Notes under the pieces: generated by a model
What the model was told of the DNA's origin: nothing
What the model saw: only the letters and a program-made list of their open reading frames with translations
The model's database searches: none
Part shown: piece after piece, positions 9,503-32,000 of the stretch
Layout of the letters: each line of letters begins with the position of its first letter
Position numbering within the stretch: the stretch's first letter is position 1
Assembly (NCBI RefSeq): GCF_001458695.1
Contig: NZ_LN885086.1
Span: 30,001-62,000 of the forward strand
Origin: Candidatus Nitrospira inopinata
Lineage (GTDB): Bacteria; Nitrospirota; Nitrospiria; Nitrospirales; Nitrospiraceae
Reading direction: 5' to 3'
Length of the DNA stretch: 32,000 nucleotides
Program-made: the position numbers and the translations under genes

Positions 9503-9536
9503 AAAAAAACTCCTACCAAATTTCTTCGGTAGGAGT
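9503..9536 (-). terminator. Rho-independent terminator (minus strand)
   Basis: On the minus strand, ACTCCTACC-gaagaaattt-GGTAGGAGT forms a 9-bp stem followed directly by TTTTTTTATT. Confidence 0.65.
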
Positions 9537-10921: not shown

Positions 10922-11462
10922 CAGCGCGACCGAAGGCCTCGTGCGAGCCCGTCTCCCGCGAGGCCCTGTTTCCTCCCCCTGCCCGATCAATGGCGACGAG
11001 GTCCCCGGGCCGAACGATTCCTTCCCGCAAGACTCTCGCATAGACCCGACTCCACCCAGGGTTGCTCTTTTGTGAAATTCGCGACCAGTCTCCATCCCGG
11101 AACCAGCGTCTATTTTTGTGACAGGGACCGGCGTAAGATGTCACTTCGATCAGCAGATCCGGCCCGACCGACAGGCGCAGGCCCGGTCGGATGAGATTCC
11201 ACTCCAGTCCGACCAACGTCAAATTTTCTCCGCAGGAGCCGGCGTCGATCGGATGGCCTTCGTCCTGAAGCCGTTCGATCAATTCGAGCGAATAGAGACA
11301 CAGCGCGCGATCCGGCCCGCCGTGAAACTTGAGATTCTCTTGCCGATCTCCCTCCACACCGGCGGTGAGGACCTTCGCCTCCAACACCGGCCGTTTGGGG
11401 ACTCCTCCATCCGAAACGTTGATCTGATGCACGTGTGGATAGCCGGGCCGACTCCCCCTCAT
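10914..11462 (-). CDS. MOSC domain protein (YiiM-like)
   Basis: [34 protein letters not shown] and [10 protein letters not shown] match the MOSC beta-barrel pattern. Its ATG lies 4 nt after the prmA stop, implying an operon. Its 3' end overlaps the convergent hup stop by 8 nt. Confidence 0.78.
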
Positions 11463-16214: not shown

Positions 16215-16269
16215 AATATCGCTCGGGCGTTGACAAAGACCGATGCTTGAAAAGATAGAACGAGCGAAC

Positions 16270-16296
16270 AAGCCGATGGCCATAGGCCGTCGGCTT
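16270..16296 (+). terminator. Hairpin downstream of the beta-propeller gene
   Basis: AAGCCGATGGCC-ata-GGCCGTCGGCTT is a 12-bp stem with one G.U pair, 56 nt after the stop. It is followed by GGGTCTTGAAT, a weak U-tract. Confidence 0.5.
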
Positions 16297-16382
16297 GGGT
16301 CTTGAATGCAGACAAGTCAGAGCCTTCTCTTGTATTTCTAAAGAACGATTTCGTTATACTGACGGCGGAACGGCGCCATCTC

Positions 16383-17312: not shown

Positions 17313-17365
17313 TCTCCGATTTCATGTCATGGTATTTCACATGACCTGGAGCTTTCCGGTTCATG

Positions 17366-18796
17366 CTACCTCCCGCCGACCGGGGATCCAACCTTGGACT
17401 GCCACGAGGCCGATCGAATCATGTTGCCCCATTCCGCTTTCGTCCCTCGGATCCAGCGCACCAGGCCGACCAACTTCCAATAGGCATTGAGCTGTCGGTA
17501 TCCGAAATTTTCCAGCACCGCCACAGCCAACAGTCGCCAGAAATCGGAAGGCCGTTGATAGACATGAAAGGTCATTTCTTCCATCAGGATCGCGCTCAAC
17601 GAGAGAGCGATCCCCAACCCCACCGCCACTGACGTGGTGACGAGCCACACCTGCCATGACACCAGGCCCAACACGAAGCCCGCCACCAACAACCCATAGC
17701 CCAGTACCTCGAACACCGGGCCGAACCACTCAAAGATCGCCATGAATGGAAAGGCGACCCAACTGACCAGGCCCCCTTTGGGATGGCAACAGAGCGCTAC
17801 GTGTGCGCTCAAACTTTCGCACAGTCCTCGCTGCCAGCGAATCCGTTGATTCTTGAGTGTCCGCAGATCTTCCGGCACTTCCGTCCAACAGACCGGGTCC
17901 GGCACATAGGTGATACGATAGGGTATCCCCGCCAGTCGATAGTGATGATGGAGCCGGACGACCAGTTCCATGTCCTCGCCGACCGTGTCGGTGCGATAGC
18001 CACCGACTTTCAGCACCGCCTCTTTGCGGAACAGCCCGAAGGCGCCGGAGATGATCAACATCGCATTGAGCGGCGACCACCCCTGGCGACCGGCCAAAAA
18101 CGCCCGCAGATATTCCACCAGTTGTAAGAGCGCCAGAAAGTTCGAGGGCAGGCCGACGGATTTCAACAGCCCCTGCTCCACTTGACAGCCGTTGGCAACG
18201 CGAATCGTTCCTCCGGCCGCGATCGTGCGATGGTCCAGCAAAAACGGTTGCACCACCCGATACAAACTGTCTTGCGACAAGATTGAATCAGCGTCGATGC
18301 AACAAAAGAGCGGCGCCGTCGAGACGTTGATCCCGGCATTCAGCGAGTCGGCCTTGCCGCCGTTGTCCTTATCCACCACACACACGTTGGAATGGAGGGC
18401 CGAGCGATAGAGGGCCCGAATCGGTTTGGTCGACAGATCATGGGCGTAGGCTTCCGGAAACGGTTTGAGGTGAAATGCTTCTCTCAATACCTTCAAGGTC
18501 TCATCTTTCGACCCATCGTTGACGACGATGATCTCGTAATCCGAATAGGTCAATTGAAGGAGCGATCGTACGGAACTCACGATTGTCGCCGCCTCATTGT
18601 AGGCCGGCACGATGATGCTGATTTGGGGCTCATAGCCGGTTAAAGCCACGCGAGAACCCAATCCCAGTCGTTCCTCGAAATACCGTCCGAGTGTGCTGAT
18701 GGAAATCATATTCAGGGCGAGGTATCCAGCCGTCAACGCGAGCAAATAGAGTAAAAACAGCACCTGGACCGCGCCAAAGAAGGTTTCGAAGGTCAT
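17366..18796 (-). CDS. Processive family-2 glycosyltransferase (PgaC/IcaA/HmsR-like polysaccharide synthase)
   Basis: ISIIVPAYNE, VVNDGSKD, GGKADSLNAG, CIDADS, GEDMEL and QRIRWQRG (Q-x-x-RW). It has 2 N-terminal and 3-4 C-terminal TM helices. SD GAGGAAG lies upstream of the ATG at 18796. Confidence 0.88.
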   Translation of the reverse strand: MTFETFFGAVQVLFLLYLLALTAGYLALNMISISTLGRYFEERLGLGSRVALTGYEPQISIIVPAYNEAATIVSSVRSLLQLTYSDYEIIVVNDGSKDETLKVLREAFHLKPFPEAYAHDLSTKPIRALYRSALHSNVCVVDKDNGGKADSLNAGINVSTAPLFCCIDADSILSQDSLYRVVQPFLLDHRTIAAGGTIRVANGCQVEQGLLKSVGLPSNFLALLQLVEYLRAFLAGRQGWSPLNAMLIISGAFGLFRKEAVLKVGGYRTDTVGEDMELVVRLHHHYRLAGIPYRITYVPDPVCWTEVPEDLRTLKNQRIRWQRGLCESLSAHVALCCHPKGGLVSWVAFPFMAIFEWFGPVFEVLGYGLLVAGFVLGLVSWQVWLVTTSVAVGLGIALSLSAILMEEMTFHVYQRPSDFWRLLAVAVLENFGYRQLNAYWKLVGLVRWIRGTKAEWGNMIRSASWQSKVGSPVGGR

Positions 18797-19161
18797 GGGC
18801 GTCTTCCTCGCAGGGGGGCTCTGTGGAGTGCCGGTACCGTTCTATCGGCATCCTTTCCTTTCATCTTGAGAGGAGATGGTGTCGTGGGAGCCTATCGATC
18901 ACATCCTGAAAAAAAGGGGCATCTCATGCCGGCCGCGACCGTGCTGGTCTCGACCGGACAAGACCGTCAGCCCCGTGATGAGCCTTCGTGACCGTCCCTC
19001 AAGATTCCGATCCCCTAGACCGATACCCTAGGTGTTATTGAGTGCCCGTAGTCCGGACCGTATGAGCACCGGGATGCCCCTCGTCGCCCGATTGCTCGTC
19101 GGAAACATTGGGCCTTCTAAGGGAGAGCCGACCCCTCCGCTACGATAGACACTGACCACTG

Positions 19162-20637
19162 ATGGCACGGGACACCCTCTTACTCACGTTCTCTGTCACA
19201 CGACCTCAATCTCTATCAGCCCTAGTGACCATCCGTCGCCAACCTGACATCCCATCAAAACGGCGAGCCGCCCTCATGTCGCTGATTCTGTGCTGGGCAC
19301 TGCCCATGGGCGGAGAGTTGTTCGGTGCAGCCCCTCCCGACGAGACCGACACGTCGGTGTCCCATCAGCACTATTCGGACAATCTTCCGGACAATCTTGA
19401 CAATCTTATGGAGCAGGCCCGGCAACTTGAAACAGCCCAACGATATCAGGAAGCGGAAACCCTCTATCGAACCATTCTGAAGCGACAGCCAACCAACGAC
19501 GACATCCGAGCCGCGCTGGCTCGCGTGCTGTCGTGGCAAGGATTGTACGCTGAGGCTATCGACCTGTACCGATCGCTCGTTCAACGGTATCCGAATGACG
19601 TGGACCTCAAGACCGCGCTGGCGCGGGTGCTTTCGTGGCAGAAATCAATCACGGAAGCAAAAGCCCTGTATGAACAGGTGTTGCGGGAGAATCCACACCA
19701 TGTCGAGGCCCTCGAAGGCCTGGCCAATCTCCTCTACTGGGACGACCGCTTGGATGAGGCGCTGCCCTATTATGAGCAAGCCTATGCCATCACGAGCAGC
19801 CCCATTTTGGCAGAGCGAATCTCGCTGATCAAAAGCCGACCAACAGGGCTCGTTTCCTCCGCCCCCTCCTTCGCAAGCATGGAGACTTCTCCTCAGGCTC
19901 CGCTCGGGTCACGGGATTCCTCGATCCGCCTGCCATTTCGCGACTATTTCAAAGTGGGATATGGGCAGTTCGGCTATACCCGCGGCATCCAGACTGAGCA
20001 TGCGGTGCTCGTCGAGGCGGCTAAATCCATAGGCGAACAGACCCTGGTCGGCCGGGTGGAATCACTTCACCGCTTTGGGTTCCACGATGTGCCCATTTCG
20101 GCAGAACTGTACAGTCCCCTGTGGGCGCGCGCGTGGGGTTATGTCGCCGCGCAGGGGACCGTTGATGCACGCTTCACCCCCACCTACTCTGTGGCGGGAG
20201 AGCTCTATCAGGGGTTGGGCATCATTCACTCTCTTCTTTCGATTTTTGAAGCCTCGGTGGGCTATCGGCGGCTTTCGTACAGGACGGACGACATCAATCT
20301 CTTCATGCCCAGCTTGACGGTCTATCTTCCCTTTGACACCTGGCTCACGGAACAACTGTATTGGGTTCCGGAGACCGGCGCTATGACATTGGCGTCTCGC
20401 CTCACCTGGCGCCCGACGCCGCGTGTGCAGTTGTTCGTCTCCGGCTCGTTCGGCACATCGGGCGAACGGATCGTGGCCACACAAGACATCACGCGGATCG
20501 GAAGCCACACCATCCAAGGCGGCTTCATCATTCCCGTCATAGAACGGCTGTCATTGGAGGCGACAGGATATTACGAGGATCGTGGTCGATTGTATGCTCG
20601 GCAAGGAGGCAACTTCGCCATCATTTATCATTGGTGA
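19162..20637 (+). CDS. TPR-repeat plus C-terminal outer-membrane beta-barrel protein (YaiO/PgaA-like exporter candidate)
   Basis: About 4 TPR units (YQEAETLYRTIL..., YAEAIDLYRSLV..., ITEAKALYEQVL..., LDEALPYYEQAY). The C-terminal ~250 aa have an alternating beta-strand pattern and end in the aromatic ...FAIIYHW. The start is uncertain: ATG at 19162, or the GTG at 19225, which sits closer to the signal-like segment. Confidence 0.68.
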   Translation: MARDTLLLTFSVTRPQSLSALVTIRRQPDIPSKRRAALMSLILCWALPMGGELFGAAPPDETDTSVSHQHYSDNLPDNLDNLMEQARQLETAQRYQEAETLYRTILKRQPTNDDIRAALARVLSWQGLYAEAIDLYRSLVQRYPNDVDLKTALARVLSWQKSITEAKALYEQVLRENPHHVEALEGLANLLYWDDRLDEALPYYEQAYAITSSPILAERISLIKSRPTGLVSSAPSFASMETSPQAPLGSRDSSIRLPFRDYFKVGYGQFGYTRGIQTEHAVLVEAAKSIGEQTLVGRVESLHRFGFHDVPISAELYSPLWARAWGYVAAQGTVDARFTPTYSVAGELYQGLGIIHSLLSIFEASVGYRRLSYRTDDINLFMPSLTVYLPFDTWLTEQLYWVPETGAMTLASRLTWRPTPRVQLFVSGSFGTSGERIVATQDITRIGSHTIQGGFIIPVIERLSLEATGYYEDRGRLYARQGGNFAIIYHW

Positions 20638-20668
20638 CCTTCGGTACTCTCTTGACCTCGTTATTCCA

Positions 20669-21793
20669 ATGAACGACGTGCTCTTTCTTGACGATCATCT
20701 CAGTCTGACAATTTGGTACCGGGCGGCTTTCGCCACTGGGGGGCTGGTTATTTTGCTTTTGCTGTGGGTTCTCTGCATCCGCGTCGGACGATCGATCGGT
20801 CGGTACCGATCCCGTCTCATTACCAAGAAGTGGAAAGCGATTTTTGAAGGCCGTGCCCCACTGCATCACAACCTCCCGTCCCGATTCACAATCGGCCACC
20901 GTCATCGGGTTCTTGTGCTCTCCCTGTGGAACCACTGTTATGACGAATGTCGATCGAACGACGAAACGGCTCGACTGGTGGACATCGCCAAACGCCTCCC
21001 GTTGCAGCCATGGGCCAGAACGCTCCTACGCAGCCGGCGACTTCACAAAAAAATGTTGGCCATTCGGACATTGGGGCGCCTCGACGACCGAACCATGTGG
21101 AGCCCTCTGCACTCATTGATCACCCACCCGAATCTCTTCGTGGCCCTGCATGCTGTTCAGGCCCTTCTGACGATTCACCCAACAGCGGCCGTTCCCCATC
21201 TCATTCCCGTGATCGGCCGGCGAAGCGACTGGTCTCCCCTGGCCGTCGCCACGATCTTGCGTTCGGCCGGTGATGATCTGGCATCCGAGGTCCTTGCACA
21301 GGCCGCGACCACCGGAGACCAAGCCATCGGCGCTCGGCTGATTCGCCATCTGCCAGTCACCCAGAGTCCTCGTGGACTGCCCATCCTCCGTCGATTCCTG
21401 GAGTCAGCAGCGCAGGCGTCGGATGATTTTCTCGCCGCTTCCTTGTTCGTGTTTGGCGAATATCAAGATCCGGCCGACCTGCCACTGGTTCGACAAGCCC
21501 TTTTCCATCCGGTGTGGTACGTGCGGGTGCAGGCGGCGACCGCGATGGGAAAATTGGGCACATCCAGCGACGAAGCCAGGCTTACCGCGCTGTTGAACGA
21601 TCCGGAATGGTGGGTACGGTATCGAGCAGGCGAAGCTTTGGTCAATTTGCCTTCGATGACCGAAGAGAAGCTGGAGATGCTTCAAGCCACCTTGCCATTG
21701 CCCGAGGCGCAGGAGATTTTGGCGACAGCCCTGGCCAAATTTCGCCAACGCCGGCGCGTTCAGCTTTTCACCGGCGCGGCACCACGTTCGTAA
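20669..21793 (+). CDS. Membrane-anchored HEAT-repeat protein
   Basis: One N-terminal TM helix (AAFATGGLVILLLLWVLCI) followed by HEAT/PBS-lyase-like repeats (HPVWYVRVQAATAMGKLG, DPEWWVRYRAGEALVNL). The ATG at 20669 lies 31 nt after the OMP stop. Confidence 0.7.
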   Translation: MNDVLFLDDHLSLTIWYRAAFATGGLVILLLLWVLCIRVGRSIGRYRSRLITKKWKAIFEGRAPLHHNLPSRFTIGHRHRVLVLSLWNHCYDECRSNDETARLVDIAKRLPLQPWARTLLRSRRLHKKMLAIRTLGRLDDRTMWSPLHSLITHPNLFVALHAVQALLTIHPTAAVPHLIPVIGRRSDWSPLAVATILRSAGDDLASEVLAQAATTGDQAIGARLIRHLPVTQSPRGLPILRRFLESAAQASDDFLAASLFVFGEYQDPADLPLVRQALFHPVWYVRVQAATAMGKLGTSSDEARLTALLNDPEWWVRYRAGEALVNLPSMTEEKLEMLQATLPLPEAQEILATALAKFRQRRRVQLFTGAAPRS

Positions 21794-21835
21794 ACCGAGA
21801 CAGCGGCCTCTCAGTCACACGCCACCCGGACGGCG

Positions 21836-22240
21836 CTATTCACAAGCCAGGGTCCAGAGGTCCTTGGCCACCGTGCCGGATTCAAGCCGGCCGACCGGTT
21901 CCCACTCCTCACTAGTGGCAGTCTTCTCCAACACCTTCTTGCCACTTTCCATTGGCCCGGCAAAATGCTGGATCGTAAGGACGCGGGTGAGCGCCTTGGC
22001 ACAATCATATTCCCGCTGGATCTTCGCTGAACGGAACGAAATCCCCTCTTCCTTGGTCTGCTCCCTCTTGAAATCATAGAGCACCCAAACCATCCGCCGA
22101 TCCCCATTTTTCTCAATGCTTGACGCATCGATATAGATGGTCATCCCCGCTGTTTCGTTGCCCCCCAGCGACACCCATCCGGCCCATGCCGGCCAGGCTG
22201 CAATGAACGCCAGCCCCATCGTGACTGTGGTGAGTTTCAT
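21836..22240 (-). CDS. Secreted protein resembling the surface-adhesin-E family
   Basis: Signal peptide MKLTTVTMGLAFIAAWPAWA, then W.SLG......IYIDASSI...G.RRMVWVLYDF...SAKIQREYDC...GPM.SG......W.PV...T....LW..AC, the pattern I associate with Adhesin_E-like proteins. SD GAGGGAG lies 7 nt upstream of the ATG at 22240. Confidence 0.65.
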   Translation of the reverse strand: MKLTTVTMGLAFIAAWPAWAGWVSLGGNETAGMTIYIDASSIEKNGDRRMVWVLYDFKREQTKEEGISFRSAKIQREYDCAKALTRVLTIQHFAGPMESGKKVLEKTATSEEWEPVGRLESGTVAKDLWTLACE

Positions 22241-22535
22241 CGTGTTCTCCCTCATTGTTTCCCTTCTCTGGTTTGAGACGTCCCCTCCGCCTCATCGTCG
22301 TCATTCGCGTGTCGGCCGCCTCGACTGGGGATTATTCCCGCGCATCCGGAGTAAATCAAGGTAGCGCGGCCTTTCCATCAGGGCTTTCATCGTTCGCCCC
22401 CTCTCCGCATCTTTCCCATCCCCTGACACAACACCGCCGCAACTGTTCTTGACTTTCCCTGTTGAAATCGATAAGCAGAGCAGCCCTCTATCGTTCATTT
22501 CATTGCCGATCCCGGCGCAGAAAGGAGTCCCGACC

Positions 22536-23675
22536 ATGAGTGCTCTCAGGCTCTTCTATGCAACGAATCGAAACCACGTGGGCAAGGACCGGTGGCGGCC
22601 CGACGGCTATGGAAAGAAATTCAGCGACGACGGAGCCGAGAACCTGCGTTTCGGCCGAGTGTTAGTGCAGGCCGACGAGGCCAAAATCGCCAAGTTTGCC
22701 CAAGCGGATCGGGGAAAGATGGGAACCGGAGACGGAGAGGGGCTGACCAAATACCTCGCCAAGTGTGCGGCATCCGCCGACATCGTCGCCTATCGGGAAA
22801 AAATCGATCGCTCCGTCGCCGAAACTCATCAGGCCGACGTCAAGCTCGGATCGCAAGCGGCGTTTGCGGATCTGCAAACCATCATGCAAAAGAACACGGA
22901 CGTGCTCATTTACATTCATGGCTTTAATGTCTCCTGGACGGACGCGGTCGGCTCCGCGCTGGCTCTTCAGGAAATGCTCAACCGCTGTCCCGACAAAGAC
23001 CCCGCCCAGCAGGTGCAAGTGGTGCTCTTTACCTGGCCGTCCGACGGCTTGGCCTTGCCCTTTGCCTCTTACAAATCAGACCGGTCGGAAGCAGCCGCCT
23101 CCGGCAACGCCTTTGGACGGGGCATCTTGAAAGTGAGAGACTTCCTCGCCCGGCTTCGACAGGATAATCAGCAACTCTGCCAACAGGACCTGCATCTTCT
23201 CTGCCACTCCATGGGGAATTACCTGCTTCAAAACGCCGTCACTCGCTGCGACGCCTTTACGCCAGGCGATGCCTTGCCCCGCATTTTCGAACACATCTTT
23301 CTCTGCGCTCCGGACGTGGACGACACCGTGTTGGAATCAGGCCAACCGCTCGGCCGCCTCCATGAATTGGCAAGAAGCGTGGACGTCTATCACAACCGCG
23401 GCGATGTCGCGCTGGTGGTATCCGACTTCACGAAAGGCAATCCCGATCGACTGGGATCAAACGGAGCGGCACGACCCAATCTTGTCCATAACAAAGTTCA
23501 TCAGATCGACTGTACACCGATCGTCAAGGGGCTGGTTGAACATAGTTACTATCTTGTGGGACACGTCAACGCGGACATCCGCATGAGCATCGACGGGGTG
23601 CCGCACGATGACACCCGTCGCAGGCGGAATCCCTTGGGAATGTTGGGTAATCAGTGGCAAATGCGGTCGGCGTGA
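22536..23675 (+). CDS. DUF900-type alpha/beta hydrolase
   Basis: LFYATNRN near the N-terminus, VLIYIHGFNVSW, FTWPSDG and the nucleophile elbow CHSMGN (GxSxG variant). SD AAGGAG lies 8 nt upstream of the ATG at 22536. Confidence 0.72.
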   Translation: MSALRLFYATNRNHVGKDRWRPDGYGKKFSDDGAENLRFGRVLVQADEAKIAKFAQADRGKMGTGDGEGLTKYLAKCAASADIVAYREKIDRSVAETHQADVKLGSQAAFADLQTIMQKNTDVLIYIHGFNVSWTDAVGSALALQEMLNRCPDKDPAQQVQVVLFTWPSDGLALPFASYKSDRSEAAASGNAFGRGILKVRDFLARLRQDNQQLCQQDLHLLCHSMGNYLLQNAVTRCDAFTPGDALPRIFEHIFLCAPDVDDTVLESGQPLGRLHELARSVDVYHNRGDVALVVSDFTKGNPDRLGSNGAARPNLVHNKVHQIDCTPIVKGLVEHSYYLVGHVNADIRMSIDGVPHDDTRRRRNPLGMLGNQWQMRSA

Positions 23676-23990
23676 GAACGCCGTTTCACGGATGTCCCCA
23701 TCAAAACATGCCGCCTCCATGTTCGCGCTCGGAAGCGCCGCGCCGGCTCGTCCACAAACCGAGCCTGAGACGGTGCTTCCGATCTCGCTCCCGGCAGCCA
23801 GGGCACCCTTCCCTGTTCGAGACACCGCGTAGAGAAATTCTTTCATCCACCCTCGCCCTCCCCGTTATCTGACTTGTTCCGTCAATGGTTCGCCGGTCGC
23901 AGTGTGTTGGATCAGCCAAGCTGACGTTTGTTTCTATGGCAATCCGCGTCGACCCCACGTATCATATTTGATCATCCGCCTGGGCTTCCT

Positions 23991-24410
23991 ATGAAATCCA
24001 CGACGGTGATTCGATTCCTCATTTTGCTCATTCCCGCCGTGTGGGTCATCCTGCGTCTCATGCCGGTCAACCATCCCAGAGTGAACACGATGCAGCTTGC
24101 CGCGCAGCACGCGCAAGAGGAGGCTCGATCGGCACGTGAACCTGATCAGTTCACAGCCCTTGAATCCTCGTTTCAGGCCCATTACCAGTCGCACTACGTC
24201 TCATCGGGATTCAGCTACAACCATTACCGACTCGCCTATAAGTACGGGTTCGATCTGGCCCGTGACCCCGAGAATCAGAAAGTCAACTGGAACATCGTCG
24301 AGCCCCAGGCGCGGGCTCAATGGGATGAACGGACGCTGGGGGCTTGGAGTCAGCACCGCGAGGCGGTTCTATACGGATGGGAGCAGGGGATGAAATTCAA
24401 CAGAGGATGA
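23991..24410 (+). CDS. Small N-terminally anchored protein of unknown function
   Basis: MKSTTVIRFLILLIPAVWVILRL forms a TM anchor. It is followed by a soluble, aromatic-rich segment (FQAHYQSHY...YNHYRLAYKYGFDLA...WSQHREAVLYGWEQG). I assign no family. Confidence 0.5.
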   Translation: MKSTTVIRFLILLIPAVWVILRLMPVNHPRVNTMQLAAQHAQEEARSAREPDQFTALESSFQAHYQSHYVSSGFSYNHYRLAYKYGFDLARDPENQKVNWNIVEPQARAQWDERTLGAWSQHREAVLYGWEQGMKFNRG

Positions 24411-24829
24411 ATGATGCGAGACCATCAAGAGTTGCAGGTTCTGCCAATAACTTATCGACCAGCGTACCACGAGACCGGACTACACATCCCGCCTCATTTT
24501 CGACTTCTGGGATGAAGAAAACCTTGCTTTGGTCTATGGGCCCATCGATATCCCCCTTCTGCGGAGGCCAGTTAAAAGAGTGGGCGATCATCTTCTCCCT
24601 CACAAGAAAAGGGCCACTGCCCGGATGGTTTCAGGTTCCAAAGAAACACTGACACAGTGAACCGATGGGGATAGCGATTGCTGAATGGTTGTATCCGAGC
24701 ATGTAGAAGCGGGACTAAGGTAAAATCGCATGGAGCCGTCGACTCTATTCACAGAAACGGAAACGTTGCCCATGGAGCATCGCCCCATCGGAGATATTGT
24801 TTAAATAACTTGTAGAAGGAGGCCTTCTC

Positions 24830-25594
24830 TTGGAAGCGACTGATTTTATCATTCAACAACGTGGTGGAGAGAATGCACCCCGCCAATTGTTTGTTGCCAC
24901 GCTGCGTTCAATTCAAGTCGGGATGCCGCGTACATTTGGCAGCACGGACGCAACAGATCGAATGGACTCTCCATGGACAACCGGATTTTTCAAGGAGCCC
25001 GTTGTCGGGCCTGTCCGAGTCGGACTATGTAACTTGGAAGGCGACGGGCAGGCAGATCTCGTGAATCACGGAGGTCCGGAAAAAGCGATCAACGTTTACC
25101 CCTTAGAACACTATAGCTATTGGGAACACTCGCTTGGATTGGCAGATTTACCTTATGGCGCCTTTGGGGAAAACTTTACGATGATCGGGTGTTTGGAATC
25201 CGACGTCTGTATCGGAGACATTTTTACGGTCGGGGAAGCCGTCGTTCAGATCTCGCAGCCTCGGCAACCCTGCTGGAAACTGTCGCGGCGATGGCGCATA
25301 CGAGATTTCGCACTCAAAGTTCAGGAGACGGGTCGTACCGGCTGGTATTTCCGCGTCCTCAAAGAAGGATCGGTCGAGGCGGGGGCGCCGATGGTCTTGA
25401 CCCAGCGGCCTTATCCACAATGGACCGTGCAAGCGGCCAATCAAGTGATGCACCAATGTCCGCAAGACGTTGATGCGGCGCGAAGGCTGTTGAATTGCCA
25501 CCTTCTCAGCGAGCGTTGGCGTGAAACGTTGAGAAAACGCATCGCAACCGGCAGGATCAACAGCGGCACCGCGAGACTTTTCGGTCCCAATTAA
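24830..25594 (+). CDS. MOSC domain protein with C-terminal helical extension (YiiM-like)
   Basis: LEGDGQADLVNHGGPEKAINVY, GAFGENFT, IGDIFTVGEAVVQISQPRQPCWKL and TGRTGWYFRVLKEG. It has a TTG start with AAGGAGG 7 nt upstream. Confidence 0.85.
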   Translation: MEATDFIIQQRGGENAPRQLFVATLRSIQVGMPRTFGSTDATDRMDSPWTTGFFKEPVVGPVRVGLCNLEGDGQADLVNHGGPEKAINVYPLEHYSYWEHSLGLADLPYGAFGENFTMIGCLESDVCIGDIFTVGEAVVQISQPRQPCWKLSRRWRIRDFALKVQETGRTGWYFRVLKEGSVEAGAPMVLTQRPYPQWTVQAANQVMHQCPQDVDAARRLLNCHLLSERWRETLRKRIATGRINSGTARLFGPN

Positions 25595-25998
25595 TAGATT
25601 CTCACACCTTTACAGACGGAGTCCTCTCGCTGGATTAGCAATCGTTGTCATCCTGGTGCTCTCTTGAAATGAAGTTATCTGAGTTGATCCTTGAGTCTGG
25701 TATTGGATCAAGAACTGCTTTTCATCCATCTGACTTGATTTCAGACACACATGACACCCTGCGATCGGCCGACACTTTGACGGTTGCCTGCGACGGATAA
25801 TACCCTCACACTTGCCATTCGTTTCGGGGACAAGGGCTCGGATAGGAGAGAGGAGTGTGGGTGGCAACGATGAGGAAAGAGAATGCTTTTCTCTATCAAA
25901 AAAGAAGTCTATCGACCCGACTCAAATTTGTGGCCTCGGAGTGAAGGGGCACCCACCATAAATACAGGTACCCCCTCAAATCACGATTGTTCATGACG

Positions 25999-26019
25999 CA
26001 TCCGCCACCATGGCGGATG
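25999..26019 (-). terminator. Hairpin downstream of cycB (possible end of the hao-cyc transcript)
   Basis: CATCCGCC-accat-GGCGGATG is an 8-bp GC-rich stem ~30 nt past the cycB stop. It has no adjacent U-run, so support is weak. Confidence 0.3.
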
Positions 26020-26050
26020 AGCCGATGACAAGCAACGAAGAATGGATTCG

Positions 26051-26656
26051 CTAGTCGTCCTTTCCGTCCTCCTCTTCGTCCTCGTCCTTCTTCTTTTTCA
26101 CTTCCTTGAGAACAGGTTTCCCCTGAGCCAAACTTGCATTCAGATCATGCTCAGGGACCTTTTTGTGGACCAGGTTTTGATGGCAGTCAATACAGGTCGC
26201 CCCCTCAGTTTCCATCTTCGCATGGGCTGCCTTAGCGGAGGCTCCCGGGGGCTTTGTGTTCTTATGGCATGCCCGACATGTCAGACTATCCCATTCTTTG
26301 AGTTTCATTCTGGCCCGGTATGCAGCTGCCGGACGATGCTCATTGAATTTCTCGACCGTGGAGTAGTCCGTCGTGAATTCTTTGATCAAGAACGGTACGC
26401 CGTCCACCACGTGAGTATAAATCGCCTTGTGGAAGTTAGAAAAACCTTGCGGCACATGGCAATCCTTGCAACCCGGGTCCATCCCGAGAGCGCCCCAATG
26501 AGAAGACTTTTTCAACTCTTCGTAGGGATAAATTTCAGAATGACAGCTTATGCAGAACTCTGTTCTCGATATTGCGGCCTCGCCCCCAAACACGACGGCG
26601 ACGCCCACAATACCCAGAACCGCACCAAGAATGAGTGTACCGGCCTTTCCTGACAT
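26051..26656 (-). CDS. cycB: Membrane-anchored tetrahaem cytochrome cM552 (NapC/NirT family)
   Basis: N-terminal TM helix (GTLILGAVLGIVGVAVVFGG) and four CxxCH motifs (CISCH, CKDCH, CRACH, CIDCH). The C-terminal KKKKDEDEEEDGKDD tail is low-complexity. Its ATG overlaps the cycA TGA by 1 nt, with GAGGAGGA as SD. Confidence 0.9.
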   Translation of the reverse strand: MSGKAGTLILGAVLGIVGVAVVFGGEAAISRTEFCISCHSEIYPYEELKKSSHWGALGMDPGCKDCHVPQGFSNFHKAIYTHVVDGVPFLIKEFTTDYSTVEKFNEHRPAAAYRARMKLKEWDSLTCRACHKNTKPPGASAKAAHAKMETEGATCIDCHQNLVHKKVPEHDLNASLAQGKPVLKEVKKKKDEDEEEDGKDD

Positions 26657-27375
26657 CAGTCCTCCTCGACCTTATCCGCTTTGACGGGCGGCTTGGCGTT
26701 CTTCTGGAATTCTTCATGGAATTTTGGAGTTGGAGGCCCGGTAAATGTGCCAGCCAACTTGAAATGGTCGTGCATCGCTTTATCGTTTCGAACCGATTTG
26801 TCAAAGTCAAACGCGTACTTCTTATCAACAGTCGGGGTAAAGGGAGTATACGGTTTCTTGACGCCCTTCCATCCTGACCCTTCATAGTTCAAATGGCAGG
26901 CATTACATTTCTCCACAAACTCGAAGTCTTGTCCTGCTTCAGCCAACGACTCGCGAGGAGTTTGTTTTTGAGATTTCTCGAACGCTTCTCCCGCTTTCCG
27001 GTGGATTTTTCGATAATCACTCCCCGCTCCATGACAGGATTCACAACCCACTCCTATCAGGAACTTATCAGGCTCTTCAATCGTATACCCGCCTTCCATG
27101 CCCCAGCCGGTCACATGACATCCCACGCAGTCTTTATCCTTTGTATAGTCCTTTTTGGGATCAAGCTTTGCTTTGAGCTTCGCTTCTTTCCTCGTATTCG
27201 GCTTGAGGGATTCCATGGCTTTGGCATGGAGTGTTTTATCCCACGATTCTCCCTGTCCTTTATGACAGTTGTAACATTTTTTTCTGCCCTCAAACGTTCC
27301 TTCGGCTGATGCAGTTCCCGCCAACGCAAGAAAAACCGCTGCCGCGGCAAGTGCGGATATAGCTCGATAGTTCAC
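26656..27375 (-). CDS. cycA: Tetrahaem cytochrome c554
   Basis: Signal peptide ...FLALAGTASA-EG and four CxxCH motifs (CYNCH, CVGCH, CESCH, CNACH). FEGRKKC..CHK, DKDCVGCHVTG, GVGCESCHG and CHLNYEGS match my memory of Nitrosomonas c554. Start placed at the GTG at 27375, with AAAGGAG 5 nt upstream; the track start at 27390 contains that SD. Confidence 0.9.
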   Translation of the reverse strand: MNYRAISALAAAAVFLALAGTASAEGTFEGRKKCYNCHKGQGESWDKTLHAKAMESLKPNTRKEAKLKAKLDPKKDYTKDKDCVGCHVTGWGMEGGYTIEEPDKFLIGVGCESCHGAGSDYRKIHRKAGEAFEKSQKQTPRESLAEAGQDFEFVEKCNACHLNYEGSGWKGVKKPYTPFTPTVDKKYAFDFDKSVRNDKAMHDHFKLAGTFTGPPTPKFHEEFQKNAKPPVKADKVEED

Positions 27376-27515
27376 GGTAGCTCCTTTCACTAAAAAAGAA
27401 CTTCGGCTTATATGAATAGCTCTACAACTTCTGTTGTCTCAAGGCGCTTTCTTGCTTAATTAAAATACCATGACTGCGTGCTGATTATCATCTCAGTTTT
27501 TACGCCGCCGCATGC

Positions 27516-28565
27516 TCAGTTTTGCCGTTGAATCTGCTCAGCAGAAGGGATTTTGTATATCCAATATCCCCCTTCTTTATGTATTAATTGCAACGCATCA
27601 AGATCCATCGGTCTAAAGTTGGAAAACGGCAACATTTTCGCCAACAGTATGTTGCTGGCTCCGCTTTCTCGGAGGAAATAAGCACGCACTTGCTTCTCGG
27701 AGAGAGACTGAAGGGTATAGCTTGTGTAGTCGTTGTTTGTCAGCCAGGCTTTCACCTGCCCGCTGAGTCCATGGACGTTTCCTGTCAAGGGAAAATCCTT
27801 AAATGCAACATCTATGCGATCAGGTCGCATCAGTCCCAACTTATAAATGTCGCTCACATGCACGACCACGTATGCTTCTCGCGAACCAACCAGCTCGCGC
27901 AACATTGCGGCACCTTGATGAGGGTACGCCATGAGAGCTTCAATAAATCGGTTAAACTGCGCGCGTTCTTCCGGAGAAGCCTGCTTCCCCCAAAACTTCT
28001 GCTCGTACTGTTCAATCGCTTCAAATCGGTCTCTCCAGTACGACGGGGCGATGACCGGCAAGCCAAGATAAGCGGTGAAGAGCGTCGGACGATCCGACAA
28101 AAGGGCCAGTTTTCTCGAAGTATCCCACCATGCGACGATGACGGCATCGTTCGGCACATGTTTGGCGATGGCGGACGATACGGCGATCGTTTCTGAAAGC
28201 CCTTCTTCCATGGATAAAATCGGTTCTGGAAACTTATTTTCCACATACAGAAGAACAGGATCGAAACCGGAGCGGTTTGCGCGATAGACAAAGGCGAGCG
28301 GTTGATCGATTGCGTCCACTTGTACTTCGAGCTTACCGATTGTCAGATATGGATAATTTTCCAATCCCAGGTTAGGGAATTTATCCGGGCCGCCCTCCTC
28401 CACCACACGATAGTGATAGGGCGGTGGTTCCGGTTGAAACCACAAATAGACAAACCATCCTACTAAAAAAAGGCCTCCCGCCACCAGGAGAATTCCCAGT
28501 GACGGGAGGAACTTACTTGCTGAGCGAGCCTTAACAGGCTCGCTCAGCGTAGGCGTTGCAATCAA
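27516..28565 (-). CDS. haoB: HaoB (HAO-associated membrane protein)
   Basis: Called from conserved synteny between haoA and cycA. The 349-aa product has one N-terminal TM helix ([23 protein letters not shown]). The TTG start overlaps the haoA stop by 4 nt, with AGAGGAAAG upstream. Confidence 0.78.
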
Positions 28566-30277
28566 CGATCTTTCCTCTCTCGTCGACGCCAGCCAGCAAT
28601 TGCCAACGTACCGGCCAGCATCATACCTCCGCCCAACCCCCCGATCGACAGCTTCCCGCCCGGGCCATCGAGATCAAGCAGAGAGTGCTTGCGCTCGCTC
28701 TCAAGCTTATCGACACGGGCCAACAACTTTTGTGTTTCCTTAAGCCGAGTGTCATCGTCCATGATTTCCACATAGGCCCGATTCATCGCAGCCCAACCAA
28801 CCGTATAGGTATATCCCCAATACTGGTGAGCCAAGCTGACGTGCAATTGAACCAGGTGATCCTCCGCCATTTCGAACAGCTTGAGCTCGTTGGCCGCCGG
28901 GTTATTTCCCTTTGACCAGTAAATCTGGAAGAACTGCTCAAAGCCGTCCTTCACCGGAGGAGGCGGTGCGGGCCGGTTGGTTTTTTGCCCCGTCAACAAC
29001 CCGGCCTTGTACTGCTCTTCGACTACGTGATGAGCCTCGTCGTACTTATCAAGACCGGAGTACGTACCTTTATCCATGAACTCCATCCAGGCGCGGGCGT
29101 AACTTTCCGAGTGACAGTTCGTACAGGTTTTAACCCACGCATCGAGCCGCTTTTCCGACCAATCGGTCGAGATATTCTCTCGGATGCCAGGAACGAACGG
29201 ATAGTTGGCCCATCGAACCTTGCGCACCACGTTGTGGGTTATCTTACCTTGATATTCCATGTGGCAGAATTGGCATGTCGGGGCACTCAATCCACCCTTG
29301 GCAATGGCTTCTTTAATGGGAATATTGAAATTCCACTTATCTTTGTCTCTCTGATACTTCAATCCATGCTTGGAGAGGGAGTAGGCCTCCCAGTTGTTGT
29401 GATCGGCCCCACTGTGACACTGAGCGCAATTTTCCGGCTTGCGCGATTCCGCGACTGAGAATTCATGACGCGAGTGACAAGTATCGCACTTGTTCTGATT
29501 GACGTGACAACCGGTACAGCCATCGGCGATTTCTCTTTGAGGCATCCCGGCATAGACGTCCACTTCCACGTTAGCCTTATAATCCAAGGCATGCGAAGGA
29601 CGCCCCTTGGGCCACTGATCTTTTGGCCATATGATGGTGTCACGCTCCGATTCTCGTTCAGCGAATTCCTGAAGATGGCACGTACCGCAGGTGTTCGCCG
29701 TCGCCAGCTTAATGTCCTTGCGATGATCGGCCTTCCCTTTGGCATTGATTTCAAAGTGACAATCAATGCACCCAACTTCTTTTAGCTGCTCCCCCTTGCC
29801 CAACTTGCCCATCGACCGAAGGTTTTCCTCGATTTGCTCAAGCTTCGCCTTCTTGTAATAGGTCTCATCCTTGGGCGTCAGTTTACGGATCTTATCCAGA
29901 TTGGCATGCGTGCTGCGCTTCCACGCAGCCACCCACCCCGGCGATTCATCCGTATGACATTTGACGCACTGCTCACGGCTTGCGACTTCCTTGACTGCCT
30001 GCGGGGGCTTATAGAACGTCGTGGGATCGAAATACTTACTGAAAGTGACGGGCTCCCAGTACTGACCGTAAATTCCCTTTCCGGCCCCTTGCTCAGGATC
30101 GAGGTACCTTTTCACCAGAGCCTCGTACAGCTCCTTTGGAGAAGCCGAACGGTCGATCTTCAGTGCCTCATAAGTTTCCTTCGGCACCGTCGGGAAGTCC
30201 GCTTGCGCCGGTGCGGCCAGTAAAACGCCGCAGACGAGCATCACAAACTTCTGCGCAAACTTGCTGCTCATCGTCAC
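28562..30277 (-). CDS. haoA: Octahaem hydroxylamine oxidoreductase
   Basis: Signal peptide ...[10 protein letters not shown] and eight CxxCH motifs (CVKCH, CIDCH, CGTCH, CTGCH, CDTCH, CAQCH, CQFCH, CTNCH). The [19 protein letters not shown] segment contains the Tyr expected for the P460 cross-link. There is a C-terminal hydrophobic helix plus a basic tail ([24 protein letters not shown]). SD AAGGAG lies 8 nt upstream. Confidence 0.95.
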
Positions 30278-30399
30278 GCTCCTTTTGTTGATAGTGGGTC
30301 ACGTCCCACGTTTACTTCACGAATGCTGAAATATCTTTCAATTGAAAAAATTTTTAGGCCCACCACGCCGCGCACACCACGGTTCTTGAGCGCCGCGCT

Positions 30400-30429
30400 C
30401 ATATATCTTAATGACTCGTCAATTGTCAA
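30400..30429 (-). promoter_or_regulatory. Sigma70-like promoter candidate for the hao-cyc operon
   Basis: The minus strand reads TTGACA-(18 nt)-TATATG, or a 17-nt spacer to ATATAT. It lies 82 nt after the ccmI stop and ~120 nt upstream of the haoA ATG. The -35 hexamer matches consensus; the -10 is imperfect. Confidence 0.35.
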
Positions 30430-30510
30430 GAATATTTCGGATGTCACGAGAAACCGGCCTCCTGAGATTCGCGTGCATCTGCCTGTTAACGAAGATCCGG
30501 CAAGAGAACC

Positions 30511-31812
30511 TCACGGTCGCTGGCGATCGATTACAATCGTAATGCCTTCCGTTCCCGGCTTGATCGGCTGACTCATCCCTTCAAGGTCTCCACTCCCAGG
30601 CATGGCCGTCCCTGATCGAGAGAGGCGCGCCACAATCACCACGGTCTCGAGATCGGATAATTTGCGGGAGGGCATCGGACTGGTCGAATCGTCCAGCCTA
30701 AAGGTAAACGGCAGATCCTTTTTCGTCGCGCGCACGATCGATACCGGCATCGGCGGTCCGTTCGGATCTTTCGCAAAGACGAACAAGGTGTCGGCTCCGG
30801 AGGACTTGGCCTCCATACCGGGTCCCAAAATCACCTTGCCGGTGATCGCATGTGATCCGCCTCGTTTGTTGATCGGAGGATGATCGGCTGGAACCGATGA
30901 CTCGGCAAGCGCGGCATTTGCCATCGCCATCAATGGAGCTCCGCCCATCCGCCGCTTCGCCTCGTTGATGCCGGCCATGAGTTGTTCGGTGGATTCCGGA
31001 TCAGAATTCTGAGGCAGATTCGCGCGCGCCAGTTCCCAATCTTTGACGGCCGAAGCAAAATCCTTCCGGTTAAAGGCCACGGTGCCCGAGAGCATCAACG
31101 CCTTCACGTTATTGGGGTCAAGCTGTAATGCCTTCTGAATCAGAGCCTCGGGCTTGCCTTCAAGTTTGCGTCCCTGATGAACCCCGAGCGCATCGGCATA
31201 ATCCGCGAGCAGGCCCGCGTCGTTGGGATTCAGCGTCACGGCCCTTTCGAAAATCGGCACGGCCTCGGCATAGCGATCCATCGCCATATAGGAGCGAGCC
31301 AAGAGGGTCCACCCCGTCACGTCATCGGGGTTCTGCTCCAGTTTCTGTTTCAGTCGTTCAATCAACGTATTGAGCCCCTCCGCCATCAGACGATCATCTT
31401 CCACGTCACCTTGCGAAGCAGAGAACGCACTCGCCGCCGGATGCGTCATGGCCACCGGATTGCCCAAGGACCAGTACAAGATCCCGCTTGCAGTCGGAAT
31501 AAGCACGACGAGCGCCACCGCGACGTATTTCACGTTCATCGGCCGGGCCGCCGTCTGTCCTCTTTCGGTCACGCCCACCTCCTCCAACAGACGACGTTCT
31601 AATTCTTGGCGCGCCGTCAGATATTGCTCCTCCGTCAGCAACCCGCTGGATTTGTCCTGCTCCAGTTCCGCGAATTGCTGTCGATAGACCGGCAGCGTCT
31701 TCTCCCGCTCCACACCCGCTCCCGCAGCGGCCTGCTTGAAGAGCGGGCGCAGAAGAACTCCCAGGATGATCAGAATCAGAGCCGTGGCGATCAGTCCGAA
31801 TGCGAGAGTCAT
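30511..31812 (-). CDS. ccmI: Cytochrome c-type biogenesis protein CcmI/CycH (TPR)
   Basis: Two N-terminal TM helices flank a charged loop, followed by TPR repeats (YAEAVPIFERAVTLNPNDAGLLADYADAL...). The start ATG overlaps the ccmH stop (ATGA). Confidence 0.78.
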   Translation of the reverse strand: MTLAFGLIATALILIILGVLLRPLFKQAAAGAGVEREKTLPVYRQQFAELEQDKSSGLLTEEQYLTARQELERRLLEEVGVTERGQTAARPMNVKYVAVALVVLIPTASGILYWSLGNPVAMTHPAASAFSASQGDVEDDRLMAEGLNTLIERLKQKLEQNPDDVTGWTLLARSYMAMDRYAEAVPIFERAVTLNPNDAGLLADYADALGVHQGRKLEGKPEALIQKALQLDPNNVKALMLSGTVAFNRKDFASAVKDWELARANLPQNSDPESTEQLMAGINEAKRRMGGAPLMAMANAALAESSVPADHPPINKRGGSHAITGKVILGPGMEAKSSGADTLFVFAKDPNGPPMPVSIVRATKKDLPFTFRLDDSTSPMPSRKLSDLETVVIVARLSRSGTAMPGSGDLEGMSQPIKPGTEGITIVIDRQRP

Positions 31813-32000
31813 GATTCTTTCACTCCTTGGGAGAGCAGCCGCTCCACGCGCCGATGCTCTTCATCCGTAATGACCGCGTTCTCTACCATTCTTTGCCGAC
31901 GCCTCAACGTCACGGCAAGCGCGATTCCTCCTCCGACCAGCAAGACGAAAGGCCCCACCCACAACAGCATGGTGGTGGTCTTGAGAGGAGGTCGGTATAG
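31809..32000 (-). CDS. ccmH: Cytochrome c-type biogenesis protein CcmH, C-terminal part (5' end outside window)
   Basis: The minus frame, open to the window edge, translates as LYRPPLKTTTMLLWVGPFVLLVGGGIALAVTLRRRQR.... This is the conserved (V)LYRPP motif plus TM helix plus basic stretch of CcmH/NrfF-type proteins. Confidence 0.72.
   Translation of the reverse strand, partial: LYRPPLKTTTMLLWVGPFVLLVGGGIALAVTLRRRQRMVENAVITDEEHRRVERLLSQGVKES

What the first reader, a model, noticed from the sequence alone, without database searches (positions are those of the whole stretch)
26051..30277. Complete haoA-haoB-cycA-cycB hydroxylamine-oxidation module in a high-GC backbone unlike classical ammonia oxidisers
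Four tightly coupled minus-strand genes encode all the hydroxylamine-to-quinone relay components known from ammonia oxidisers.
- HaoA has 8 CxxCH motifs and the GYTYTVGW tyrosine segment, which indicates an oxidative P460-type enzyme rather than a reductive octahaem enzyme.
- HaoB, cytochrome c554 (4 CxxCH) and the NapC/NirT-type cM552 (4 CxxCH) complete the set.
- Gene order and coupling match the canonical AOB cluster: haoA/haoB overlap by 4 nt and cycA/cycB by 1 nt.
- The surrounding housekeeping genes (prmA, hup, thiD, hsp20) sit in DNA that is clearly more GC-rich than known Nitrosomonas, Nitrosospira or Nitrosococcus genomes.

An HAO module in such a backbone is what a complete nitrifier (comammox-type Nitrospira) or another unconventional ammonia or hydroxylamine oxidiser would look like. 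This is the most consequential system in the window.
Basis: partly seen in the sequence, partly recalled or inferred. Interest (0 to 1): 0.85.

Follow-up and report, generated by a model that had tools for sequence, protein, structure and literature searches.

The report
Known Nitrospira inopinata hydroxylamine-oxidation operon

Summary
Four minus-strand genes at 26051-30277 encode HaoA (8 CxxCH, cross-link Tyr491), HaoB, cytochrome c554 (4 CxxCH) and a NapC/NirT-type cM552 (4 CxxCH), with the reported 4-nt and 1-nt overlaps.

The "comammox-type Nitrospira" interpretation is also correct, but the system is already known. All four proteins and the upstream CcmI are residue-for-residue identical to annotated Candidatus Nitrospira inopinata proteins (CUQ65039-CUQ65043) on its 3.295-Mb chromosome. 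HaoA is 65% identical to the crystallised Nitrosomonas europaea enzyme, with all the catalytic residues I checked aligned. It is far from anammox and reductive octahaem enzymes. There is no amo in the window. That matches the literature: N. inopinata is the comammox genome in which the AMO and HURM clusters are separated.

Two side observations have some value:
- A 15-bp-stem hairpin (28474-28509) lies inside the first ~30 codons of haoB. Its synonymous sites are frozen across both comammox clades and canonical Nitrosomonas/Nitrosospira.
- A YiiM-type MOSC reductase gene follows cycB in nearly every comammox clade A locus that extends past cycB, and in no clade B locus.

I found neither described in the papers available to me.

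The parts
30511..31812 (-). ccmI (CycH), the last gene of the type I cytochrome c maturation cluster directly upstream of haoA
   Evidence: Matches TIGR03142, PF23892 and PF23914. Exact match to CUQ65043.1. ccmB-H lie further upstream on the identical contig L076, and ccmA, B, E, F, G lie upstream in relative L002.
28562..30271 (-). haoA, the octahaem hydroxylamine dehydrogenase (569 aa from the ATG at 30271; the ORF opens at the GTG at 30277)
   Evidence: 8 CxxCH. 882 bits and 64.9% identity to N. europaea HAO (6M0P/4FAS). Y491, D292/H293 and Y359 align to NeHAO Tyr467, Asp267/His268 and Tyr334. Exact match to CUQ65042.1. Hydrophobic stretches at the N terminus and the C terminus.
27516..28565 (-). 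haoB, a membrane-anchored HAO-associated protein of unknown biochemical role (349 aa from a TTG that overlaps the haoA stop)
   Evidence: TIGR04392 at 338.6 bits against a cutoff of 200. Exact match to WP_158023100.1; the original annotation CUQ65041.1 starts 27 codons later. One hydrophobic stretch at aa 16-45.
28474..28509 (-). Conserved 15-bp-stem hairpin CCTCCCGTCACTGGG-AATTCT-CCTGGTGGCGGGAGG, followed by CCTTTTTTTA (28464-28473). It lies inside haoB codons ~19-32 and starts 53 nt after the haoA stop.
   Evidence: Flagged as terminator-like. Folds at -30.3 kcal/mol. Present in all Nitrospira loci that hold this region, in some Betaproteobacteria, in N. eutropha and in Nitrosospira. Synonymous sites in the stem are frozen, compared with 1.70 bits elsewhere. 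98.4% of cells are paired, with no compensatory double changes.
28519..28548 (-). Second, lineage-restricted 13-bp-stem hairpin GCTGAGCGAGCC-TGTT-AAGGCTCGCTCAGC, between the haoA stop and the conserved hairpin
   Evidence: Seen only in the thermal N. inopinata-like subclade and in L012.
26656..27375 (-). cycA, tetrahaem cytochrome c554 (239 aa from the GTG at 27375; the ORF opens at 27390)
   Evidence: NF043010 at 418 bits against a cutoff of 400, plus PF13435. 4 CxxCH. Exact match to CUQ65040.1. AAGGAG lies 6 nt upstream of the start. Hydrophobic N-terminal stretch.
26051..26656 (-). cycB, membrane-anchored tetrahaem cM552 (NapC/NirT family), the proposed quinone reductase
   Evidence: PF03264 at 149 bits. 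4 CxxCH. N-terminal hydrophobic stretch at aa 1-31. Exact match to CUQ65039.1, 'Tetraheme cytochrome c(M)552'.
24830..25594 (+). YiiM-type MOSC (molybdenum cofactor) protein, convergent on cycB. It is a conserved neighbour in comammox clade A; whether it belongs to the module functionally is not shown.
   Evidence: MOSC and YiiM_3-alpha domains. 193 bits to the YiiM structure 5YHH. Shorter annotated call CUQ65038.1. Synteny.

Best explanation
[quoted passage not shown] It sits directly downstream of that organism's cytochrome c maturation (ccm) genes.

Proposed mechanism:
1. Ammonia monooxygenase, encoded elsewhere on the chromosome, makes hydroxylamine.
2. Periplasmic HaoA, an octahaem protein whose catalytic haem is cross-linked to Tyr491 of a neighbouring subunit, oxidises the hydroxylamine.
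3. The electrons pass through tetrahaem cytochrome c554 (CycA) to the membrane-anchored tetrahaem cM552 (CycB), which reduces quinone.
4. HaoB is a membrane-anchored partner of unknown role.
5. The adjacent Ccm system attaches the 16 haems.

Shown here: gene content, gene order, motifs, alignment of catalytic residues, family membership and organism identity.

Inferred from N. europaea biochemistry and from the literature: the trimer, the physical cross-link, the product (NO and/or nitrite) and the electron route.
For: Organism identity:
- Exact sequence identity of HaoA, HaoB, CycA, CycB, CcmI and Cld to N. inopinata entries CUQ65042, WP_158023100, CUQ65040, CUQ65039, CUQ65043 and CUQ65015, all on a 3,295,117-bp contig.
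- The MOSC ORF is also in the collection, and a shorter call of it is annotated CUQ65038.
- Window 16051-32000 is 100% identical over 15,950 bp to a contig that carries these proteins.

Enzyme type and family membership:
- HaoA scores 882 bits and is 64.9% identical to NeHAO. Tyr467, Asp267/His268, Tyr334 and the haem-4 CxxCH all align.
- The HaoB and CycA NCBIfam equivalog models are above their cutoffs.
- CycB is NapC/NirT-type with an N-terminal anchor.

Context and relatives:
- The closest genomes are published clade A comammox MAGs that cluster with N. inopinata (PMC10284858).
- The HaoA tree places the window in that subclade.
- ccm-haoAB-cycAB synteny holds across about 60 Nitrospira loci.
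- Literature: comammox genomes encode AMO, HAO/HURM and NXR, and in N. inopinata the AMO and HURM clusters are separated (PMC6311188; PMC6478695).
Against: Nothing substantive.
- No amo or nxr gene lies in the 32-kb window, so complete nitrification cannot be shown from the window alone. It rests on the organism's identity and on the literature.
- The N. inopinata enzyme's activity and product were not tested here.
Confidence: 0.97

Rival explanations
1. An ordinary proteobacterial ammonia oxidiser (Nitrosomonas, Nitrosospira or Nitrosococcus) carrying its usual hao cluster.
For: The module is most similar to betaproteobacterial AOB modules (65% identity to NeHAO). Its GC content (51%) is AOB-like.
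Against: - All proteins are identical to N. inopinata proteins.
- The flanks carry a chlorite dismutase identical to the annotated N. inopinata protein CUQ65015.1.
- All close genome hits are Nitrospira.
- A ccm cluster adjoins haoA in all but a few of the Nitrospira loci that extend far enough upstream, and in none of the proteobacterial loci fetched.
Confidence: 0.01
2. A reductive (epsilonproteobacterial-type) or anammox-type (HOX/HDH) octahaem enzyme rather than an AOB-type hydroxylamine dehydrogenase.
For: It shares the PF13447 fold family. There is a weak NF052343 (hydrazine dehydrogenase) hit at 126.6 bits.
Against: - That hit is far below the cutoff of 900.
- PDB scores are 882 bits to NeHAO, against 173-131 bits to anammox HAO-like/HOX structures and 112 bits to HDH.
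- The cross-link Tyr and the Asp/His pair align.
- haoB, cycA and cycB follow in the AOB order.
Confidence: 0.01
3. A previously unknown, unconventional hydroxylamine or ammonia oxidiser.
For: The backbone is non-classical and relatively GC-rich.
Against: The organism is identified, cultured and published (PMC6311188).
Confidence: 0.01

Closest known systems
HURM (haoA-haoB-cycA-cycB) of Nitrosomonas europaea and N. eutropha; HAO structures 1FGJ, 4FAS, 6M0P
   Same: - Same four genes in the same order.
- 8+4+4 haem motifs, cross-link Tyr, Asp/His pair and Tyr334.
- A haoB start overlapping the haoA stop.
- A conserved hairpin in the haoB 5' end.
   Different: - 65% HaoA identity.
- A single copy placed next to ccm genes, in a Nitrospira chromosome. 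The review PMC6311188 states that betaproteobacterial AOB have up to three copies.
- cycA/cycB overlap by 1 nt here.
Ammonia-oxidation locus of mesophilic clade A comammox Nitrospira (for example locus L017, MAG RBC093)
   Same: The ccmA-I, haoA, haoB, cycA, cycB order, then a convergent yiiM-like gene. HaoA is 85-90% identical.
   Different: In those genomes amoC-amoA-amoB-orf278 directly precede yiiM. In the window, amoCAB and orf278 are absent from the 26 kb beyond cycB. This matches the literature statement that N. inopinata has separated AMO and HURM clusters (PMC6311188).
Hot-spring clade A comammox MAGs (JANDJ* assemblies, PMC10284858)
   Same: HaoA is 95-99% identical. DNA is about 90-92% identical across ccmI-cycB, and the flanks are syntenic.
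   Different: They are different species-level genomes. Some carry an amoC fragment 5-6 kb beyond cycB (L002, L006).
Anammox hydroxylamine oxidase and hydrazine dehydrogenase (4N4J, 6HIF)
   Same: Octahaem fold family PF13447.
   Different: Only 112-173 bits of similarity, and no haoB-cycAB partners.

Membership tests
AOB/comammox hydroxylamine-ubiquinone redox module (HURM) | HaoA with eight CxxCH haem-binding motifs | tested here: met
   8 motifs, at residues 104, 170, 197, 254, 264, 284, 335 and 385.
AOB/comammox hydroxylamine-ubiquinone redox module (HURM) | Tyrosine that cross-links to the catalytic P460 haem (NeHAO Tyr467) | tested here: met
   Y491 in GYTYTVGW aligns to NeHAO Tyr467. 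The covalent bond itself cannot be tested from sequence.
AOB/comammox hydroxylamine-ubiquinone redox module (HURM) | Distal Asp-His pair and Tyr334 of the NeHAO active site | tested here: met
   D292, H293 and Y359 align.
AOB/comammox hydroxylamine-ubiquinone redox module (HURM) | haoB immediately downstream of haoA | tested here: met
   TIGR04392 equivalog at 338.6 bits against a cutoff of 200. 4-nt overlap with haoA.
AOB/comammox hydroxylamine-ubiquinone redox module (HURM) | Tetrahaem cytochrome c554 (CycA) | tested here: met
   NF043010 at 418.1 bits against a cutoff of 400. 4 CxxCH.
AOB/comammox hydroxylamine-ubiquinone redox module (HURM) | Membrane-anchored tetrahaem NapC/NirT-type cM552 (CycB) | tested here: met
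   PF03264 at 149 bits. 4 CxxCH. N-terminal hydrophobic stretch. There is no cM552-specific curated model; the protein is identical to one annotated as cM552.
AOB/comammox hydroxylamine-ubiquinone redox module (HURM) | Hydroxylamine oxidation and electron delivery to quinone | not testable with these tools
   This is a biochemical property. It is inferred from NeHAO and from the physiology of N. inopinata in the literature (PMC6478695).
Comammox Nitrospira (complete nitrifier) | Nitrospira chromosomal backbone | tested here: met
   Exact identity of module and flank proteins to N. inopinata. All close loci are Nitrospira.
Comammox Nitrospira (complete nitrifier) | Type I ccm genes co-localised with hao | tested here: met
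   ccmI is in the window. ccmB-H are on the identical contig L076.
Comammox Nitrospira (complete nitrifier) | amoCAB and nxrAB in the same genome | not testable with these tools
   Neither is in the window. The reviews state that N. inopinata has them, with AMO separate from HURM (PMC6311188, PMC6478695).
Anammox HDH/HOX or reductive octahaem enzymes | Curated HDH model score, or absence of the cross-link Tyr (reductive type) | tested here: not met
   NF052343 scores 126.6 bits against a cutoff of 900. The Tyr is present.
Intrinsic (rho-independent) terminator, considered for the haoB 5' hairpin | GC-rich stem followed by a U-tract | tested here: inconclusive
   The stem is conserved everywhere. 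The U-tract is strong in the window and in clade A, weaker in clade B, and absent in high-GC Betaproteobacteria. Termination activity cannot be tested here. N. europaea RNA-seq shows only a 1.6-1.8-fold drop from hao to haoB.

The most novel reading that the evidence does not exclude
The 36-nt palindrome in the first ~30 codons of haoB is a sense-strand RNA hairpin under purifying selection, and it has not been described as a cis-regulatory element of hao operons. It would tune the haoA versus haoB-cycAB message, by partial termination, by 3'-end stabilisation or processing, or by control of haoB translation. It is conserved from Nitrosomonas and Nitrosospira through both comammox clades.

A lesser companion reading: the YiiM-type MOSC reductase kept next to the AMO/HURM genes in clade A comammox detoxifies N-hydroxylated bases formed from leaked hydroxylamine.
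Probability: 0.3. Interest if true: 0.4.

Novelty: already known. Interest (0 to 1): 0.12.

Why it matters
The module itself matters biologically because it is the energy-conserving step of bacterial ammonia oxidation in a complete nitrifier. For this organism, however, it has been known and annotated since the organism's description, so re-finding it adds nothing.

The value of this check is mostly negative: it removes a high-scored candidate.

The side observation of a coding-embedded hairpin shared by AOB and comammox hao operons could give a handle on how these organisms set the ratio of the abundant HAO to its partners. That would hold only if the element proves functional and really is undescribed.

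Tried and rejected
- The primary N. inopinata paper and an older N. europaea hao transcript paper could not be read.
- Literature searches for a hao/haoB terminator or stem-loop found nothing relevant.
- The sigma-70 promoter scan was uninformative: 3 sites against 4.1 expected, and none on the coding strand.
- At gathering thresholds Rfam matched nothing in the module; its only hit in the window is an unrelated fluoride riboswitch. No tRNAs were found.
- The classical covariation test on the hairpin gave no support: 0 double-sided changes, and shuffles equal the observed value. The case for selection therefore rests on synonymous-site entropy and on the type of changes tolerated.
- A strong-terminator reading was weakened by N. 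europaea RNA-seq.
- The YiiM homologue search returned almost only Nitrospira names but could not separate comammox from canonical Nitrospira. Whether the gene is backbone or comammox-specific stays open.
- amoA/B/C probes taken from L017 found nothing in the window.
- A literature search for a MOSC/YiiM link to nitrifiers returned only 'moscoviensis' word matches.
Full report
**1. Observation**

The six-frame ORF list shows four consecutive minus-strand ORFs exactly where the finding reported them:
- 28562-30277 (571 aa)
- 27516-28565 (349 aa)
- 26656-27390 (244 aa)
- 26051-26656 (201 aa)

Motif counting gives 8, 0, 4 and 4 CxxCH motifs respectively. GYTYTVGW sits at residue 488 of the first protein. 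The overlaps are 4 nt (haoA/haoB, TTGA) and 1 nt (cycA/cycB, TGATG).

Family scans agree with the gene names:
- HaoA hits PF13447 at 460 bits.
- HaoB hits the equivalog TIGR04392 at 338.6 bits against a cutoff of 200.
- CycA hits NF043010 at 418 bits against a cutoff of 400.
- CycB hits the NapC/NirT family PF03264 at 149 bits.

Hydropathy is consistent with the expected topology. HaoA has hydrophobic stretches at both termini, CycA has one at its N terminus, and HaoB and CycB each have an N-terminal stretch that fits a membrane anchor.

Gene calls on an identical contig, together with Shine-Dalgarno spacing, put the true haoA start at the ATG at 30271 and the cycA start at the GTG at 27375.

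**2. Enzyme type**

Against all PDB sequences, HaoA scores:
- 882 bits to N. europaea HAO (6M0P/4FAS/1FGJ)
- 131-173 bits to the anammox HAO-like and HOX structures
- 112 bits to hydrazine dehydrogenase

The curated HDH model scores 126.6 bits against a cutoff of 900.

A pairwise alignment gives 64.9% identity to NeHAO. It aligns Y491 with the cross-linking Tyr467, D292/H293 with Asp267/His268, Y359 with Tyr334, and C254/C257/H258 with the haem-4 motif. The reductive and anammox-type alternatives are therefore rejected.

**3. Which organism**

A scan of one genome per species returned 75 loci. The best were Nitrospira MAGs at 95-99% HaoA identity and about 90-92% DNA identity. These MAGs are the hot-spring clade A comammox genomes of PMC10284858, eight of which cluster with N. 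inopinata.

Exact-sequence look-ups settle the question:

| Window protein | Identical entry |
|---|---|
| HaoA (from M3) | CUQ65042.1 |
| HaoB | WP_158023100.1 |
| CycA (239 aa) | CUQ65040.1 |
| CycB | CUQ65039.1 |
| CcmI | CUQ65043.1 |
| Chlorite dismutase at 2268-2990 | CUQ65015.1 |

The MOSC ORF downstream of cycB is also in the collection as an exact sequence without an accession of its own. A shorter 210-aa call of it is annotated CUQ65038.1. All of these entries are Candidatus Nitrospira inopinata, on a contig of 3,295,117 bp.

Window 16051-32000 is 100% identical over 15,950 bp to a contig that carries these proteins. A neighbour-joining HaoA tree places the window in the thermal N. 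inopinata-like subclade, nested within the Nitrospira sequences. The proteobacterial loci branch outside that group, and the tree was rooted on NeHAO.

**4. Context**

- Upstream of haoA lies ccmI in the window, with ccmB, C, D, E, F, G and H beyond its edge on the identical contig. In the relative L002, ccmA, B, E, F and G lie there.
- No amo or nxr gene is in the window.
- In mesophilic clade A loci the order is amoC-amoA-amoB-orf278-yiiM, convergent on cycB-cycA-haoB-haoA-ccm. The window keeps only the yiiM-like gene.
- This matches the review statement that comammox genomes carry amo, hao and type I ccm genes in one cluster, except that in N. inopinata the AMO and HURM clusters are separated (PMC6311188).
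- The module genes are 48.8-53.5% GC against 55-61% for surrounding genes. That is compatible with the published view that the comammox ammonia-oxidation machinery is most similar to that of betaproteobacterial AOB (PMC6311188).

**5. Mechanism**

By homology to the N. europaea system and as summarised in PMC6311188 and PMC6478695:
- HaoA oxidises hydroxylamine. NO is the likely enzymatic product.
- Electrons pass via c554 to cM552 and then to the quinone pool.
- HaoB's role is unknown.

Gene content, catalytic residues and topology are shown here. Activity, product and electron route are inferred.

**6. Verdict on the finding**

The novelty is nil: this is the annotated, published HURM cluster of the first cultured comammox organism.

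**7. Side observation: a conserved hairpin inside haoB**

*What it is.* The terminator scan flagged a 16-pair stem plus T-run at 28509 to 28474 on the coding strand, 53 nt after the haoA stop and inside haoB codons ~19-32. It folds at -30.3 kcal/mol.

*Where it occurs.* Junction sequences from 71 loci show free variation in sequence and length between the haoA stop and the motif. The palindrome CCTCCCGTCRCTRGG-N6-CCTRGTGRCGGGAGG, by contrast, is nearly invariant in every Nitrospira locus that holds the region (clades A and B) and in three betaproteobacterial MAGs. It is also present in N. eutropha C91, a Nitrospira-unrelated Nitrosospira MAG, a Nitrosomonas-like contig and a Ca. Desulfobacillus-like contig, always 47-64 nt after the haoA stop. 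Five high-GC proteobacterial loci lack it.

*Evidence for selection.* The analysis used 61 unique haoB sequences with a mean amino-acid identity of 62%.
- 48 conserved fourfold-degenerate codon columns outside the stem have a third-position entropy of 1.70 bits on average, with a minimum of 1.18.
- Third positions inside the stem are frozen: CCG 61/61, GTG 61/61, CTC 60/61, GGA 59/61.
- Where the stem partner is U, third positions are restricted to A or G, apart from a few pyrimidines.
- Two Gly codons whose third base falls in the loop or just 3' of the stem are free (1.69 and 1.73 bits).
- Mann-Whitney p = 1e-4.

*Limits of that evidence.* Pair counting gives 98.4% paired cells, but no pair has a compensatory change on both sides, and the shuffle control is uninformative. 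The evidence is therefore synonymous-site constraint plus pairing-preserving one-sided changes, not classical covariation. Tolerance of G-U pairs points to the sense-strand RNA rather than to a DNA operator.

*Function is inferred.* My best guess is a partial terminator or a 3'-end stabilising or processing element that separates the haoA message from haoB-cycAB.
- For: the terminator-like architecture in low-GC hosts; and the N. oceani report that haoA transcript levels stay stable while haoB and cycB vary and decay fastest (PMC3772326).
- Against: the U-tract degenerates in clade B and in high-GC hosts; and N. europaea RNA-seq shows only a 1.6-1.8-fold drop from hao to haoB (PMC6967387 supplement).

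I found no description of this element in the held library.

**8. Side observation: a YiiM-type MOSC gene**

The gene at 24830-25594 has MOSC and YiiM_3-alpha domains and scores 193 bits to the YiiM structure 5YHH. It lies next to cycB in nearly every clade A locus that extends past cycB, and is absent from clade B and proteobacterial loci. All named close homologues but one are Nitrospira; the exception is a 4-kb contig labelled Methanomethylicaceae archaeon. E. coli YiiM reduces the mutagen 6-N-hydroxylaminopurine (PMC3831636, listed). A role in detoxifying N-hydroxylated compounds in a hydroxylamine-producing cell is plausible but untested.

Noticed in passing
window 28474-28509 (-), T-run 28464-28473: A 15-bp-stem hairpin embedded in haoB codons ~19-32. 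It is conserved with frozen synonymous sites across comammox clades A and B, Nitrosomonas, Nitrosospira and some high-GC Betaproteobacteria. There are no compensatory double changes. Its function is unknown; a partial terminator or mRNA-stability element is suspected.
   Followed up: yes
window 28519-28548 (-): A second perfect 13-bp hairpin (GCTGAGCGAGCC-TGTT-AAGGCTCGCTCAGC) between the haoA stop and the conserved hairpin. It is found only in the thermal N. inopinata-like subclade and in L012.
   Followed up: partly
window 24830-25594 (+): A YiiM-type MOSC protein convergent on cycB. In mesophilic clade A comammox it sits between amoCAB-orf278 and cycB. It is absent next to hao in clade B and in proteobacterial loci. 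No literature link was found.
   Followed up: partly
L017 15084-15920 (-) and homologues: An uncharacterised, apparently integral-membrane ORF (278 aa, no Pfam hit). It lies between amoB and yiiM in clade A and directly downstream of cycB on the same strand in clade B. It is missing from the window.
   Followed up: partly
window 24000-30277: A GC dip: the module is 51.2% GC and cycA is 48.8%, against 58.0% for window positions 1-24000. This is compatible with acquisition of the module from a lower-GC donor.
   Followed up: partly
window 9523-9594 (-): A fluoride riboswitch (RF01734, 55.5 bits against a gathering score of 34). Downstream on the same strand are two overlapping ORFs in different frames (8820-9404 and 8467-8889), neither with a Pfam hit; the second reads like the C-terminal part of a MutS-type ATPase. 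They may be one frameshifted gene. A Na+/H+ exchanger (7048-8250) and a universal stress protein (6611-7051) follow.
   Followed up: no
window 2268-2990 (-): A chlorite dismutase gene identical to N. inopinata CUQ65015.1.
   Followed up: no
window 10914-11462 (-): A second, shorter MOSC-domain protein next to prmA, so the window holds two MOSC proteins.
   Followed up: no
loci L054, L056-L059, L061, L062, L072, L079: Beta- and Gammaproteobacteria MAG loci at 65-70% GC carry a complete haoA-haoB-cycA-cycB (61-67% HaoA identity) with no amoCAB within 10 kb. The labels include Rhodocyclaceae, Burkholderiaceae, Lautropia and a Ca. Desulfobacillus denitrificans-like contig.
   Followed up: partly
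loci L028/L029 and L063/L068: Two Nitrospira assemblies each hold two haoA copies on one chromosome. One copy of each pair is followed by only the first 15-19% of haoB, including the hairpin, and no cycAB.
   Followed up: no
protein P0101: A 4-kb contig labelled Candidatus Methanomethylicaceae archaeon encodes a YiiM 76% identical to the window's. It is probably a mis-binned Nitrospira contig.
   Followed up: no
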